From the NCBI GenBank assembly GCA_951406725.2, contig OX597821.1:24738001-24802000 (forward strand): a stretch of 64,000 nt of DNA. The letters are read 5' to 3'. The notes under the pieces are model-generated. The model did not search any database. It had not been told where the DNA came from and saw nothing but the letters and a program-made list of their open reading frames with translations. Position 1 is the first letter of the stretch, and the number at the start of each line of letters is the position of its first letter. A program made the position numbers and the translations under genes. The DNA comes from Octopus vulgaris. Its lineage: Eukaryota. Positions 9,260 to 61,431 of the stretch are shown one piece after another.

Positions 9260-9614
9260 CACATTATTTACATTCGACGGATATTTGTCCTCTTCTTGTT
9301 TGTTGTTAACTCAACGTTTCGGCTGATATACCCTCCAGCCTTCTCTAGGTGTCTTGGGGAAATTTCGAACTTGTGTTCTCATTCCTAAGGTATTTTTCGA
9401 TGTTGTTAGTATTATTATTATTATTGTTGTTGTTGTTGTTGTTCAGGTCACTGCTAGGAATCGAACTCGGAATCTTGGGGTATGTAGCCCGCGCTCTTAA
9501 ACACTACACTATATGCCCCAAGACACCTGAAGAAGGCTGGAGGGTATATCAGCCGAACTTTGTGTTAACAACAAACAAGATGAGGACAAATATCCGTCGA
9601 ATGTAAATAATGTG
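9260..9614 (-). mobile_element. tRNA-headed non-autonomous retroelement ending in a Penelope-type hammerhead, with an inverted copy of its 3' module
   Basis: ~100-bp inverted arms at 9260-9359 and 9516-9614. Minus strand 9518-9444 reads gggcatatagtgtagtg...gagttcgattcc (A/B-box-like), then (AAC)n(AAT)n, then the HHR module. Confidence 0.75.
9522..9566 (+). ncRNA. Minimal type I hammerhead ribozyme motif (GAAAC mutated to GAACT)
   Basis: gacac-CTGAAGA-A-GGCTG(gagggtatat)CAGCC-GAACTTT-GTGTT. The opposite-strand copy at 9308-9353 keeps GAAACGTT but has CTAGAGA in the core. Confidence 0.7.
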
Positions 9615-12600
9615 ATCAGCGAACATGTTTTTCGAAAAAAGGGAAGGGATGTCCAAATGTGTGTGTATGTGTTATATAAACACGCACACACACACACACA
9701 CACACACACACACACACACACACACATATATATTAGAGGGTTTGGAGGTGATGTACAGGTATTATATATTAGAGGAAATAAGATACTCAGAATACATGCT
9801 TATATATATATATATATATATATATATATATATATATATATATATATATAAGAATGTATTCATATACAAACGCCGAGTTTCACACACTTGAGCGTGTACA
9901 CACAGCTACACTCACACCAACACGCTTATATACATATATATATATATATATATATTTATTTATTTATTTATTTATTTATTTATTTATATGTATATGAGTT
10001 AGTGAGTGTATGCATGTATGTTTATGTATATATTTATGTATTTATTTATTCATTTATATATTATAATGTAGAGTCACTTGTTACATGAGTCTTTACTTAG
10101 AGCTTCTAAGAATATCATTTTCTACTCCAAACCGAAACACTGTGTTACTGTGTGAACTTTTTGCCCAATATCTGTTCATTTACATACATACATACATATA
10201 TCCAAACATACATATATACATGCATGCATACGCACGCACAGACACATGCACGCACGCACACACACACACACACTCTTACATACATGCATACATACATACA
10301 TGCATACATACATACATACATACATAAATACATACATACATACATACATACATACATACATACATACATACATACATACATACATACATACATACATACT
10401 TGTGTGTTATTTACATTTACGCTTTATTATTTGCAGTTTCAGTATGACAGTGAATTAACATAAGATGCCATTGTCAAGTGATCCGAAATTTATATTCAGT
10501 AATGCTTATATCAAATAAACGAATACACGACAGAAAAAGAAAAAAAAAAGACACTGTTTTAAATTGAGTTATTACTTATAAAATGGAAAATACCATTTCA
10601 CTTGTTTTGTTTCTATTGTGAAGCTCAACAGAATCCTGAAAAACTAGTGCTCTGAGCTCCTACTGAAGTTGACCTTTGAAAAGTTACCTTAATGGCTTTC
10701 CATAGAAATATTTTCATCAGCGCGGCAATTTCAACATGGTTTCTTTGTGTAGCAGACGACAGTTATAGCTGTCGATATAAATTTAGAAAGTTTCAGCGCT
10801 GCGCGCAAAATCTTTTATTATTTTATATATATTTTTTCTCTATTTTAGGCATACATATCTTTTATTTAAAATAATAACATTCTACAAATTTTAAATTAAT
10901 ATTTCACAGACTTTAAATCAGTAGAGGAATTTATTTCTAACGTCAGTTCTTCTGAACCTGAATCCGAAACGACAGTCCTTTTCATTTCAAAGTTACTTTA
11001 ACTTGTCAGTATTCAAAATAACCCTATTCTAATATTTTTGTTTGTTTTATGTTGATCTAAGAATACATTTTGTAGAGTAAATACTATATTCTGACATTAA
11101 AAAAGAAAGAAATGGAAAGAAAAAATGGTACAGAAAATTTCATTAAAACACTGGAAAAGTTAGACAGAAGAGCAAGAAAGTATGTGAAATTTAGCTGTCC
11201 ACCTTTGATTGTGTGCTGAGAACATTAACGCTGTACTGTTGATGAAATTGTAAAGATAAATTGCATTTAATAGCCTCCATTCGGCGTTTAATAGTTTAAT
11301 GTTCAATGTTGGATGCAGGATGTTTGTGTTCGGTGTCAGATACAAGTTTATGTTCTGGTGGTCCAATGAACTGAATAAAGCGTGGAATCACAGCCCATTA
11401 AACAATGCTAAACGCTTGATTAACTAATAAAACAAGCCTTTCAAATGTTAGTTCGTTGCACCGTATCCGGGCTCTTGGAAGCGAATATCTTGGCTGGTTT
11501 CTTGCTTTCTTTACAACATTATGTACCATGTGGATGTGGGGATTTTCCATTCTTATTCAAGGATTTATTCTTTGTCCTTCACAAAACTATTACGATAGAC
11601 AAAGAAAATAAACCTGAAAGAATTGTTCTGGAAATCAAATAGTAATAAAAACCAGATTGCATAATCTTACTTCCTGATAAAATCAACCTCTGGAGCAAAA
11701 AGTATATATAAAAAAATGAACATAACATATTCCGGTCATTCATAGTCACAACAGAGATATCAGAGATCATGCTAAATGAATAACACCAAAGGTGTTTGTG
11801 TCATTTTGATAACTGAAACCCTTAAACAGTTTGCAACTTTCTTTTGTAAGTTAACGGAAAGGAATTAAAAAGAAGTGTTGTGGAAAACTTGTCTTAGAAT
11901 TCTCTCTCTCGAAACCTCCTCCCAGTGATGAGGGCAGTCTCAACTGTGACGACAATTGCAATTAACTCCACAAAATAGCGAAAATAATAAAAGGCAGGGA
12001 CGACAAGATATTTTCCATTAACAGCAACTGATGCAAAGTGAAGAAAAACCACATTAATTTTACAACAACCACATCAAGCAAGAAACAACAACCACAGTTA
12101 CAGCCACAAAAACAACCACACTCATAATCAACCAACAAAACGACCACAATTTCAACTGAAAAAAAAAACTTGATAACCAACAAAACAGCATGTAAATAGA
12201 CAACAAAAGTTATTAGAGATGAACCTGCGGTTTTTTTTATAACTCTATAAAAAAAAAAGAAAAATGCTAGGAAAATATTTTGAAAATAACACCCTGTACA
12301 ACCGTAGAAAATCTAACAAACTATCACTAAACACTGGTGTTGGACATCGAAAGAGAGGAAAACAATATTCATTATTTAATTCTAAAAAACCTGGTGCATG
12401 ATAGAATCAATAGAGCGGCACACTAAATGCGTTGCAGTATTTAGACGTGTCTTTTTACGTTCTGAGTTCGAATCATGCTACGGTCATCTTCAGTTTTTAA
12501 CTCTTCCGGTGTCGATAAAAATGAAGTGCAGTTAAATACTGAGGTCATTATAATTAGTTAAACATTTTTATGAAATTTACCTGAAAATATTTAATCTAGT

Positions 12601-14612
12601 GTTGAGAGTGACATAAAGCAAATATGGCGACAAACAAAATATTTTGTTATATTTACTTACAGTCCTTTATGCTCTAAGCTCAAATAGCGTTAAAAATAAG
12701 ACTGATAAAAAACATCAGTCCTAAAAATTATAAGGGGTCGATTCAATTTACCTCTTACCTAGAAATATGTCGATTTAACTCTAAAACAAAATATTATTTT
12801 GTAAAAGTTATGTTACCTTCTCTTTCAGATAAACCTGTTTTTATAAAGCTCTGACGGTGTTCCTCGGCAAGTTTAAATGTGTTTAGCGCATGAAATAGCT
12901 ATATATATTATTGGCTACAAAACTTTATCTTTGCATATTAACTTCTCCATGCCATAATTGTTTCAGGGTCGATGTATAGAATACCAGTCCTGTATTGGCG
13001 TCAGTTCTCTCTCTTTATCTACCTACCTATCTACCAATCTATCTACCTATCAATCTATCTATCTATCTATCTACCTATCTACATATCTATCTATCTATCT
13101 ATCTATCTATCTATCGAGAAGAAATTGGCTCTGTTCAGACGTGGAGAGGATAGGCTCCGTTAGGTTTAAAATGCCCAAGGCACGCTATGTGACACGACTC
13201 CAACTGAAGGCCCAAAGAAAACTACATCACATTTTCTTTAGTATAACTGTCTATTACATCTAACTGTTTAGTTCAACAGTGTTGCCACTACTTATAGAGA
13301 TAAAGTGTACCACGTTGTGGTACCTGCTTGAATTTAAGAGGACTGATCAGTTAAGTGTTTTAACGATAGAAACAGTGCAATGAAGCCACATGGAATTGTC
13401 TAGAAACTAGGTAGGCTATTTAGAGTTCAGGACTCTAAACAGTTGACTGCATTGGTCATGGATACAGCACAATAAACTAAACTGCGGTGTCTACTTATAA
13501 TTAAGTGGACCCGGCTATTGAAGTTAAAATGGCTTCACCATAGACACAATACAAAACACTATGCTACTTTGATAGATTGATTGATTGATTGATTGATTGA
13601 TTGACTGGTTAGTTGATTGAATGGTGGGTAGATGGATGGGTGGGTTGGTGGATGTTTGTAAGCACCTTAATTTGGGGGGATTTATTTGAGTTCTTTTCTT
13701 TTCTTTCCATTGCAGGATTCAAACCGATCAATAAAAAGTGGCAAAATTCGTTTGTTTAAATCAAGACAGCTTTTGGATTGTTGGATCTGTGAATTAGTGT
13801 GTGCATATATATGTATGTGTAGATAAACTCGAACTCATTTAGTGCACATATCACTTTAGTATACAAGTGTGTTGGTTTCATTACTGTTGTGTGTGTGTGT
13901 GAAGAGGTATTCCATATGTATATATGAATGTGTGCATGTATTCAGTCTAGACATCTCAAATGGAGAATCCCTGGAATGGTTTACAAATATTTTTCTGTAT
14001 TTCTAATTGTTTGTATTTGAAGAATGTAAATCGATTCGCTCTGCTTTAATGGAGAATCCCAGCATTTCTATGTTTTTATGTAAATCTATTGTTGCATAAC
14101 CCACTGTGCCTATGATAATGGAGACTAATGGAAATCTATTACCTGGATATAAGAGTTGTAGGCTTCTCATTAGTTCTCCATTGATGTTCTCTTTCCCTCA
14201 GTTTATGTATATGTGTATCTATGTATTAGCAATCTGTGTATCATAGTTAATGCAAATGTATCACGAAATATCACACTGACTGCGCTAGTCGTCCGAAGTT
14301 GATATCTCTTATAGACGTATTGAATTAGCATGTAAGTAGCATGTACTTACTGGCAACTGTAGGCCAAAACAAAATCCGTCGTCACTGATATAGAAAAACA
14401 ATGATTGAAAAATCACTGAAGGTGCAGTTAGGCGGCCGGTTGGTTAAAACTTCGTCACTTGCATCAGAAGTAGTATTAGATTAAATTAGCAATCAATATA
14501 TCATACTTAAAGCAAATACATCAAGGAAAGTCAAAATGACTGTAGTATTCGTTCGCAGATAATATCTCTTATGGGCGCACTGTGTTAAATATGCATTTAT
14601 GGATGAATGCAT

Positions 14613-61122: not shown

Positions 61123-61183
61123 TTCTAGCAAAAACTGTCTGATGAACGGCAACGAGAAACTCAGAGTAACAGATTTTGTTGAA
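61123..61183 (+). ncRNA. Type I hammerhead ribozyme, intact core
   Basis: caaaaactgt-CTGATGA-a-CG(GCAA)CG-a-GAAACT(cag)AGTA-acagattttg; predicted cleavage after GUA at 61168. Confidence 0.75.
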
Positions 61184-61370
61184 TTTTCTGCGCTTAAAAT
61201 AAAGTATATATATATATATATATATATATATATATATATATATATATATATATATATATATATATTATGTATGTATGTATGTATGTATGTATCTATGTAT
61301 TATGTATGTATGTATGTATGTATGTATGTATGTATGTATAAATATATGGATCGATCAAAACAGTTTGATT

Positions 61371-61431
61371 CAAATTCGTTGGTACTCTTGAGTTTCAAGC
61401 GTGATGCTAGTCATCAGCCATTTTGAATTTG
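61371..61431 (-). ncRNA. Type I hammerhead ribozyme, intact core
   Basis: Minus strand caaattc-aaaa-tgg-CTGATGA-ct-AGC(atcac)GCT-t-GAAACTC(aa)GAGTA-cca-ac-gaatttg; predicted cleavage between 61383 and 61382. Confidence 0.8.

What the first reader, a model, noticed from the sequence alone, without database searches (positions are those of the whole stretch)
9260..61431. Several sequence-distinct hammerhead-ribozyme retroelement families in one 64-kb window
Seen: HHR topologies (stem I / CUGAnGA / stem II / GAAA / short or palindromic stem III / NUH) at 9308-9353(-), 9522-9566(+), 18985-19020(-), 19800-19842(+), 60946-60981(+), 61123-61183(+) and 61371-61431(-). Their stems and flanks differ, suggesting about five families. 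Established: minimal type I HHRs with palindromic stem III mark Penelope-like element pLTRs and non-LTR retrozymes, and typically cleave as dimers. Inference: the genome hosts a dense, diverse population of small ribozyme-bearing non-autonomous retroelements mobilised in trans by Penelope RT. No Penelope ORF is visible in the window.
Basis: partly seen in the sequence, partly recalled or inferred. Interest (0 to 1): 0.8.

Follow-up and report, generated by a model that had tools for sequence, protein, structure and literature searches.

The report
Penelope retrotransposon with tRNA-derived promoter
The ribozyme-shaped motifs are the ends of several families of Penelope-type jumping genes that litter this whole animal genome, which is a known situation, but one family carries a tRNA-like block just ahead of its coding start that likely acts as an RNA polymerase III promoter, which would be an unusual way to drive a protein-coding jumping gene and its short offspring.

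Summary
All seven motifs exist. They belong to six repeat families (A–F); the two at 9.3/9.5 kb are one inverted insertion. Only three window copies pass a minimal-hammerhead descriptor; three are decayed and one has a weak helix. Density (47/Mb) equals the genome average (45/Mb, about 240 times the shuffles), so the window is ordinary. Minimal hammerheads in truncated Penelope-like elements (PLEs) are published (PMC4209133). Two families are not separate non-autonomous elements but ends of autonomous PLEs: D (Neptune type, with a fixed A6→U core change) and A (Penelope/Poseidon type). Unexpected result: in A the pseudo-LTR holds a tRNA-like A/B-box block ~40 nt after the ORF stop, followed by (AAT/AAC)n, the start codon and the hammerhead. 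51 of 59 head-bearing copies begin at that block, and the majority ORF has no T≥4 run in 729 codons (null 4.1, P≈0.01; Neptune controls 7–8). I infer a Pol III promoter that yields SINE-like copies and perhaps the mRNA. Against: Rfam does not call it a tRNA, other PLE families also show 5′ pile-ups, and no transcription or cleavage was tested.

The parts
9236..9518 (-). Family A, full short copy: pseudo-LTR of a Penelope/Poseidon-type PLE, from the tRNA-like block to the 3' tail
   Evidence: blastn to ORF-linked loci L414, L438, L441 at 78-90%; layout
9444..9518 (-). tRNA-like block; B box intact (9466-9457), A box partly decayed in this copy; putative Pol III promoter (inferred)
   Evidence: not called a tRNA by Rfam
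9395..9443 (-). (AAC/AAT)n tract between the tRNA-like block and the coding start
   Evidence: L288
9380..9382 (-). ATG that opens the frame running through the hammerhead into the PLE ORF
   Evidence: (L288, L422, L441)
9308..9353 (-). Family A minimal hammerhead, first core box scrambled in this copy
9236..9265 (-). Optional ~32-nt 3' tail (second RT start site, inferred from PMC11167929)
   Evidence: tail in 9 of 24 and 8 of 22 copies; continues into the ORF in L441 and L422
9516..9613 (+). Inverted, 5'-truncated second arm of the same family A insertion, holding the 9522-9566 hammerhead (broken)
18906..19055 (-). Family B, old decayed copy; hammerhead-like, probably a U3-A8 core with one extra base (inferred)
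   Evidence: 15 matches, others 72-86% identical
19013..19075 (+).
   Evidence: nhmmer E=6e-8
19610..20015 (+). Family C, young circularly permuted ~365-nt unit (about 1.1 units) with a U3-A8 hammerhead at 19800-19842
   Evidence: 40 best copies 98-100% identical; core intact in 27 of 30; tandem spacing 365 in L067; extent
19387..19607 (-). Inverted arm of the family C insertion
60916..61072 (+). Family D, solo pseudo-LTR fragment of a Neptune-type PLE; hammerhead with U at core position 6 (60946-60981); ends at (TA)n
61121..61205 (+). Family E, 86-bp near-identical unit (hammerhead plus short 3' end) inside (TA)n
   Evidence: longer parent
61343..61489 (-). Family F 3' end with hammerhead-like motif at 61371-61431; related pieces continue to ~61890

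Best explanation
The seven motifs are minimal hammerheads at the 3' ends of six repeat families with Penelope-type insertion structure, two of them (A and D) continuous with RT plus GIY-YIG coding frames elsewhere in the genome, and family A has a tRNA-like A/B-box block in its pseudo-LTR that likely serves as an RNA polymerase III promoter. Shown: order of parts in A (ORF stop, ~40 nt, tRNA-like block, (AAT/AAC)n, ATG, hammerhead inside the first codons, two alternative 3' ends); inverted arms; pile-up of 5' ends at the block; no T>=4 run in the majority ORF. Inferred from the Anolis element (PMC11167929): the PLE protein binds RNA just past the hammerhead, nicks AT-rich or (TA)n DNA, and starts reverse transcription inside the RNA at one of two sites. 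It then copies back to the RNA 5' end or falls off, and fold-back of the cDNA would give the inverted arm. Inferred for A: Pol III starts at the block. In a tandem insertion it would read through the ORF to the next pseudo-LTR. Any inserted pseudo-LTR, and the 5'-proximal start site of the long RNA, would give ~300-nt templates, so SINE-like copies outnumber ORF-bearing ones about 11 to 1. The hammerheads probably cut only as dimers or with protein help; a cut in A would sever the start codon from the ORF; lone decayed copies are likely inert. My odds: PLE origin 0.9; Pol III promoter for the short copies about 0.55; for the full mRNA about 0.35.
For: D: hammerhead downstream of a long RT/EN frame in 11 of 12 fetched loci, on both sides in 5 of 12; RVT_1 above cut-off, GIY-YIG below cut-off at E=0.007; 25 of 30 EN-selected loci carry the D motif. 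A: 21 of 29 loci picked by an RT fragment carry the block or the hammerhead downstream or inverted upstream, against 0 of 90 Neptune-EN loci; 4 of 4 further loci end ORF-block-hammerhead, and L441 has a hammerhead on both sides of the ORF; ORF end is followed by the block in 19 of 22 cases; the frame from the pseudo-LTR ATG runs into the ORF. 28 of 30 block-selected copies have the hammerhead within 500 nt. 5' ends: 52 of 59 full blocks end within 12 nt upstream by script, 51 after correcting L214. In the systematic 0.8 Mb there are 11 blocks and 1 ORF end. A+B box pattern: 15 of 30 copies, 130 of 200,000 shuffles, 0 of 90 Neptune pseudo-LTRs; nine tRNA-invariant positions fit standard numbering in 29-30 of 30 copies. 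T>=4 runs: 0 in 729 codons, null mean 4.1, P=0.011; Neptune D, G, H have 7, 8, 8. Inverted partners in 12, 2, 3 and 13 of 30 loci of A, C, E, F. Compensatory changes in helices I and III across C-like copies.
Against: Rfam called the block nothing tRNA-like even at E<=10; relaxed ARAGORN called 5 of 30 on the sense strand and 2 on the other; the acceptor stem pairs poorly. Families D and E also show 5' pile-ups without any A/B boxes (D: 11 of 30 at -72 to -61; E: fixed start). A 5-bp hairpin sits at the block's 5' border and could itself trigger fold-back. The T-run test is one post hoc test; an earlier shuffle version was not significant (P 0.13-0.47), and the C majority also lacks T>=4 over 171 nt. 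Summed contig depth in four public runs was no higher over the block than over the ORF end (not a copy number, and the reference copy is divergent there). A copies are ~93% identical to their majority and no intact ORF copy was seen, so the family may be extinct. No ORF link was found for B, C, E or F.
Confidence: 0.65

Rival explanations
1. Passive passenger: a tRNA-derived fragment with an (AAT)n tail once inserted into the master pseudo-LTR. The element still uses an ordinary Pol II promoter, and copies begin at the block only because RT stalls or folds back at the structured border.
For: Hairpin at the border, and many -8 ends continue as a palindrome; pile-ups in D and E without boxes; known PLEs use an internal promoter in the pseudo-LTR with an intron (PMC8557442, passages); Rfam gives no tRNA call.
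Against: Ends cluster at the tRNA +1 position and its short leader; both boxes are intact in the majority; the ORF lacks T runs while three controls have them. Fold-back needs a free cDNA end there, which a template end would supply.
Confidence: 0.25
2. One reading: all are independent non-autonomous retrozymes that multiply through self-cleaved circular RNAs from tandem arrays.
For: Family C is a circularly permuted ~365-nt unit, young, with one direct tandem in 30 loci; the 86-bp E form has no coding sequence; retrozymes derive from PLE pseudo-LTRs (bioRxiv 10.64898/2026.07.22.740005, first part and passages).
Against: A and D run straight into ORFs; tandems are rare and inversions common; the motifs are the minimal PLE type, not the canonical retrozyme type. 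It may hold for C alone.
Confidence: 0.07
3. Chance motifs in AT-rich repetitive DNA.
For: The strict descriptor was at shuffle level in the window; no Rfam hammerhead hit; B does not fit the core.
Against: 36 against 0.15 in the sample, and 18 against 0.1 counting only canonical and U3-A8 cores; many families with different but pairing helices; fixed position after PLE ORFs in four lineages.
Confidence: 0.03

Closest known systems
[quoted passage not shown]
   Same: Thousands of single motifs from truncated PLEs, several families per genome, opposite-strand pairs 100-700 bp apart, extra base after A9, palindromic helix III, U3-A8 variant.
   Different: The parts read do not mention a U6 core fixed in an ORF-intact lineage, or a tRNA-derived block in a pseudo-LTR.
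Poseidon element PAc of Anolis (Frangieh et al. 2024, PMC11167929; read parts 1-2 of 4)
   Same: ORF start overlaps the hammerhead; two 3' ends delimit a 30-40-nt tail (here about +120 and +152 from the ATG); AT-rich targets.
   Different: No tRNA-like promoter block is described there; here the ATG lies 34 nt before the core.
Neptune-clade PLEs (PMC8557442, passages)
   Same: Families D, G, H: RT, CxxC linker, C-terminal GIY-YIG, (TA)n targets, pseudo-LTR hammerhead.
   Different: Cores vary by lineage: U6 (D), C4 (G), U3-A8 (H). PMC3088659 (passages) lists A6C and U4C as natural low-activity variants; A6U was not in the passages seen.
Schistosoma Sm-alpha / Sj-alpha SINE-like elements (as reviewed in PMC6765202, passages)
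   Same: Pol III-type promoter plus a hammerhead in one short mobile unit.
   Different: Those are tandem, non-coding and carry a canonical hammerhead; here the block sits in the pseudo-LTR of the coding element itself and the hammerhead overlaps the ORF start.
tRNA-derived SINEs and tRNA-bearing LTRs of Helenus TRIMs (PMC10886601, passages)
   Same: tRNA-like promoter sequence inside a terminal repeat or at the head of a short retroelement.
   Different: Those are non-autonomous and depend on LINEs or LTR elements; here the partner is a PLE, and the autonomous form carries the block too.
Non-LTR retrozymes (PMC7229834, passages; bioRxiv 10.64898/2026.07.22.740005)
   Same: Family C unit size and permuted tandem layout.
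   Different: Arrays are rare here, the hammerhead is the minimal type, and circles were not tested.

Membership tests
Penelope-like elements (families A, D) | One ORF with RT and C-terminal GIY-YIG nuclease | tested here: met
   D: RVT_1 above cut-off, GIY-YIG at E=0.007 below cut-off. A: RVT_1; the EN motif was read by eye in L438 and had no Pfam hit
Penelope-like elements (families A, D) | Partial tandem forming pseudo-LTRs, inverted truncated arm, optional 30-40-nt tail | tested here: met
   D tail not examined
Penelope-like elements (families B, C, E, F) | Link to an RT/EN ORF | tested here: inconclusive
   None within 1.5 kb in 15, 30, 30+30 and 30 loci; inversions and (for E) a tail are PLE-like
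Penelope/Poseidon clade (family A) | No CX2-5CxxC linker between RT and EN | tested here: met
   L438 frame; criterion from PMC8557442
Penelope/Poseidon clade (family A) | RT phylogeny with named references | not tested
   No reference PLE proteins were fetched
Neptune clade (family D) | CxxC linker before GIY-YIG; (TA)n targets | tested here: met
   L203 protein and 3' junctions
Minimal type I hammerhead | Core boxes, helices I and II, short self-complementary helix III | tested here: met
   Family level for A, C, E; D with U6; F weak helix II (9 of 30 fit the full pattern); B not met as written
Minimal type I hammerhead | Self-cleavage as dimer or with protein | not testable with these tools
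   Folding favours dimers by 4-9 kcal/mol but does not return the active fold cleanly
tRNA-derived SINE (short A copies) | Head with A and B boxes at tRNA spacing | tested here: met
tRNA-derived SINE (short A copies) | Head recognisably homologous to a tRNA gene | tested here: inconclusive
   Invariant positions fit; relaxed ARAGORN 5 of 30; Rfam none
tRNA-derived SINE (short A copies) | Chimera of tRNA head and LINE tail, absent from the autonomous partner | tested here: not met
   The block is part of the autonomous PLE (19 of 22 ORF ends)
tRNA-derived SINE (short A copies) | Pol III transcription | not testable with these tools
   Only assembled contigs were available
tRNA-derived SINE (short A copies) | Target-site duplications | not tested
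   3' ends seen have no poly(A); duplications were not searched
Non-LTR retrozyme | Tandem arrays with a hammerhead in each unit | tested here: not met
   Same-strand pairs in 2, 1, 0, 1 of 30 loci for A, C, E, F; loci reach only 1.5 kb each side
Non-LTR retrozyme | Circular RNA product | not testable with these tools
   No raw RNA reads listed

The most novel reading that the evidence does not exclude
[quoted passage not shown] Its 2.5-kb ORF was purged of Pol III terminators and is translated from an (AAU/AAC)n leader, and the same promoter turned every inserted pseudo-LTR into a SINE-like element mobilised by a Penelope enzyme (tens of thousands of copies).
Probability: 0.35. Interest if true: 0.8.

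Novelty: new variant of a known kind. Interest (0 to 1): 0.55.

Why it matters
The finding as first stated is ordinary: minimal hammerheads in truncated PLEs are published and the window has average density. The tRNA-like block matters more. In the papers read, SINEs are described as partners of LINEs, and tRNA-bearing terminal repeats only in non-autonomous LTR elements. A PLE that carries its own Pol III-type promoter would show a direct route to SINE birth inside an autonomous element and would pose a testable question on translation of a Pol III transcript. The U6, C4 and U3-A8 cores fixed in ORF-intact lineages give natural tests of the open question whether PLE hammerheads need to cut at all.

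Tried and rejected
Rfam found no hammerhead in the window and no tRNA or hammerhead in family A copies. The strict descriptor was at chance level. My first idea, that A is a free-standing tRNA SINE or a SINE hit by a PLE in its tail, was dropped when the block proved continuous with a PLE ORF. My idea that the bases just upstream of the block arise only by snap-back was dropped: they are element sequence, though they also form a hairpin. Three Neptune lineages (D, G, H) were tested as partners of A, B, C, E or F: none has those hammerheads at a fixed place after the ORF; a few C and E copies lie near them at scattered positions. Walking upstream of E gave a longer non-coding parent and no ORF. 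A Naiad-like RT piece beside an F copy (L150) is antisense and looks like a separate insertion. Sequencing runs: no RNA holder listed on record; contigs cover the ORF end, block and hammerhead in four runs under four organism labels, but no listed piece clearly bridges ORF end and block, and depth is no copy number. The first T-run test by shuffling was not significant. Earlier scan notes: nothing. Ten paper searches listed no report of a tRNA-derived promoter in a PLE pseudo-LTR or of a natural A6U PLE hammerhead. The library lacks most subscription papers; Repbase, Dfam, SINEBase and the Zenodo library of PMC13282606 could not be seen; bioRxiv supplements are closed, and the supplements of PMC4209133 and PMC8557442 were not opened.
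Full report
Setting. The window is G000:C8:24738001-24802000, in a 2.8-Gb genome of 227 contigs, AT-rich and full of microsatellites. The repeats look like those of an octopus; that is my recollection and inference, not a call result.

1. Observation. All seven stretches exist. Rfam lists no hammerhead among 106 matches at E<=1. A strict descriptor gives nothing above 40 shuffles. Each stretch belongs to a repeat family. First-look candidates, which are not copy numbers, were A 885, B 15, C 2067, D 1231, E 538 and F 1302. 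Alignments of the best 30 copies (15 for B) restore hammerhead folds (C and D rows were partly cut from view and counted). The full pattern holds in 27 of 30 C, 30 of 30 E, 17 of 30 D and 9 of 30 F copies, and in 4 of 11 A copies of the unbiased sample. The best-hit sets are biased toward the query.

I then tuned a minimal-hammerhead descriptor to allow four cores, after seeing the data. It finds 3 motifs in the window (mean 0.015 in 200 shuffles) and 36 in 80 evenly spread 10-kb stretches, 799,800 bases (mean 0.15 in 20 shuffles). Counting only canonical and U3-A8 cores gives 18 against 0.1. So the motifs are real, number roughly 10^5 in the genome by extrapolation, and the window (47/Mb) is average (45/Mb). 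Family profiles give 11 A, 0 B, 3 C, 18 D (6 of them a sister family), 5 E and 2 F hits in that sample.

2. Insertion anatomy. Opposite-strand partner hammerheads occur in 12, 2, 3 and 13 of 30 loci of A, C, E and F (two of the E loci are one place); same-strand pairs in 2, 1, 0 and 1. A and E have an optional 3' tail (A: 9 of 24 and 8 of 22 copies; E). D and E end in (TA)n. Partial tandems, an inverted truncated arm and a tail are the PLE signature in PMC8557442 (passages). The 9308(-) and 9522(+) motifs are two arms of one insertion spanning 9236-9613.

3. Family D is a Neptune-type PLE. Two D loci had RT or GIY-YIG remnants upstream. The nuclease gave 13,367 candidates, several in frames of 750-1,090 codons. 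Of 12 such loci fetched, 11 have the hammerhead after the ORF and 5 on both sides. L203 encodes RT, a CxxC linker and GIY-YIG. All 22 readable cores in 30 EN-selected loci have U at position 6, while position 7 takes all four bases (T 8, G 5, A 5, C 4). One sample copy has A6, and a sister family has A6. PMC3088659 (passages) reports A6C and U4C as natural, weakly active variants; a search for A6U listed one unrelated paper. Two more autonomous lineages turned up: G, with at least 150 nuclease copies 99% identical, many 775-codon frames and a C4 core in 29 of 30 loci; and H, with U3-A8 in 25 of 30.

4. Family A is a Penelope/Poseidon-type PLE with a tRNA-like block. Upstream of the hammerhead lie a ~43-nt body, an (AAT/AAC)n tract and a 75-nt block with A and B boxes. 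28 of 30 block-selected copies have the hammerhead within 500 nt; the other two have it further off behind inserted sequence. An RT remnant in L003 gave 3,226 candidates. 21 of 29 such loci carry the block or the A hammerhead downstream or inverted upstream; 0 of 90 Neptune loci do. The ORF stop is followed ~40 nt later by the block in 19 of 22 cases; the profile for this was built from ten of these loci, and one of the three misses has a partial block. L441 shows pseudo-LTR, ORF, pseudo-LTR, and L438 a 569-codon RT/EN frame without the CxxC linker. The frame opened by the ATG in the body passes through the hammerhead and the tail into the ORF. The core starts at +35 and the 3' ends lie near +120 and +152, close to the Anolis element, where RT starts 111-118 nt into the ORF and the tail lies between two start sites (PMC11167929, parts 1-2). 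Copies are ~93% identical to their majority (37 alignments); no intact copy was seen.

5. Is the block a Pol III promoter? For: a strict A+B pattern fits 15 of 30 copies, 130 of 200,000 shuffles and 0 of 90 Neptune pseudo-LTRs, and nine tRNA-invariant positions fall at standard numbers. Of 69 block hits outside the RT-selected loci, 10 start inside the block and 59 are full. 52 of these end within 12 nt upstream by script, 51 after correcting L214, with peaks at the tRNA +1 position and 7 nt before it; four copies are near-duplicates on one contig. The systematic sample holds 11 blocks but 1 ORF end. The majority ORF has no run of four T in 729 codons against a null of 4.1 (P=0.011), whereas D, G and H have 7, 8 and 8. 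The longest sense T run is 3 in 20 of 22 short copies.

Against: Rfam sees no tRNA; relaxed ARAGORN of 30; D and E also pile up at fixed 5' points; a hairpin borders the block; the first T-run test was not significant; and contig depth did not show more block than ORF end (not a copy number). If PLE pile-ups mark start sites in general, D and E do not weaken the reading: they make the block the start site of A.

6. Other families. C is a young, circularly permuted ~365-nt unit with the published U3-A8 core (PMC4209133), and the best retrozyme candidate. E is an 86-bp form of a longer non-coding parent that mostly has C4. F extends more than 800 nt upstream with no ORF found. B is old (72-86% identity) and only hammerhead-like.

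7. Mechanism. Shown: order of parts, ORF links for A and D, inversions, tails, end distributions. Taken from the Anolis work: nicking of AT-rich DNA, internal RT start, a protein-assisted hammerhead that is not needed for insertion in vitro. Inferred here: Pol III initiation at the block, short templates from pseudo-LTRs, fold-back as the source of inverted arms, and loss of the start codon on cleavage. Lone copies lack a tandem partner and most have broken cores, so they are likely inert.

8. Comparison and verdict. Massive minimal hammerheads from truncated PLEs are known (PMC4209133, parts 1-2). Retrozymes as PLE derivatives are proposed in bioRxiv 10.64898/2026.07.22.740005 (first part and passages). 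An octopus repeat annotation gives PLEs 6.83% of that genome in 190 families; the two thirds of its text that I read do not mention ribozymes, and its supplement has no such term (PMC13282606, parts 1-2 of 3 and supplement search). Short non-autonomous Penelope elements are noted in butterflies (PMC6685494, passages). Pol III plus hammerhead is known from Schistosoma SINE-like repeats (PMC6765202, passages), and tRNA-bearing LTRs from Helenus (PMC10886601, passages). PMC7229834 and PMC6431247 were seen as passages. Ten searches listed no PLE with a tRNA-derived pseudo-LTR, but the repeat databases could not be checked.

Noticed in passing
L196-L207, L166-L195 (family D); window 60950-60956: Core position 6 is U in all 22 readable EN-linked copies, including ORF-intact ones, while position 7 takes all four bases; suggests a tolerated, possibly unreported natural variant.
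   Followed up: partly
L348-L377: Very young Neptune-type PLE (family G): at least 150 nuclease copies 99% identical, many 775-codon frames, hammerhead with C4 core; probably active or recently active.
   Followed up: partly
L378-L407: Third Neptune-type lineage (H) with U3-A8 hammerhead ~270 nt after the nuclease.
   Followed up: partly
window 61121-61205; L318-L347: 86-bp family E unit is near-identical in the 40 best copies and sits in (TA)n; its longer parent varies the tetraloop of a 2-bp helix II between GCAA and GAAA, keeping GNRA.
   Followed up: partly
L031-L207 and L318-L407 (flanks): No family A hit in ~850 kb of loci picked for the other families, against 11 in the 800-kb systematic sample; hints at different target preferences.
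   Followed up: no
window 41907-44149 (-): Broken non-PLE LINE: two frames match RVT_1; the downstream frame looks like a restriction-like nuclease by eye (recalled motif, no Pfam hit).
   Followed up: partly
window 45952-46569 (+) and 60013-60462 (-): Mariner-type transposase remnants: HTH_48 for the first; the second by eye only.
   Followed up: partly
window 36291-36547: Interstitial telomere-like (CCTAAC)n array with higher-order periods of 14, 48 and 62.
   Followed up: no
window 30052-30614: Three tandem copies of a 190-bp repeat unit.
   Followed up: no
L060 1147-1651 (-): A family C unit abuts a 5'-truncated family D ORF directly; may be a template switch or a nested insertion.
   Followed up: no
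L150 709-1203 (-): RT fragment resembling Naiad-type PLEs (recalled motif) beside an F copy.
   Followed up: no
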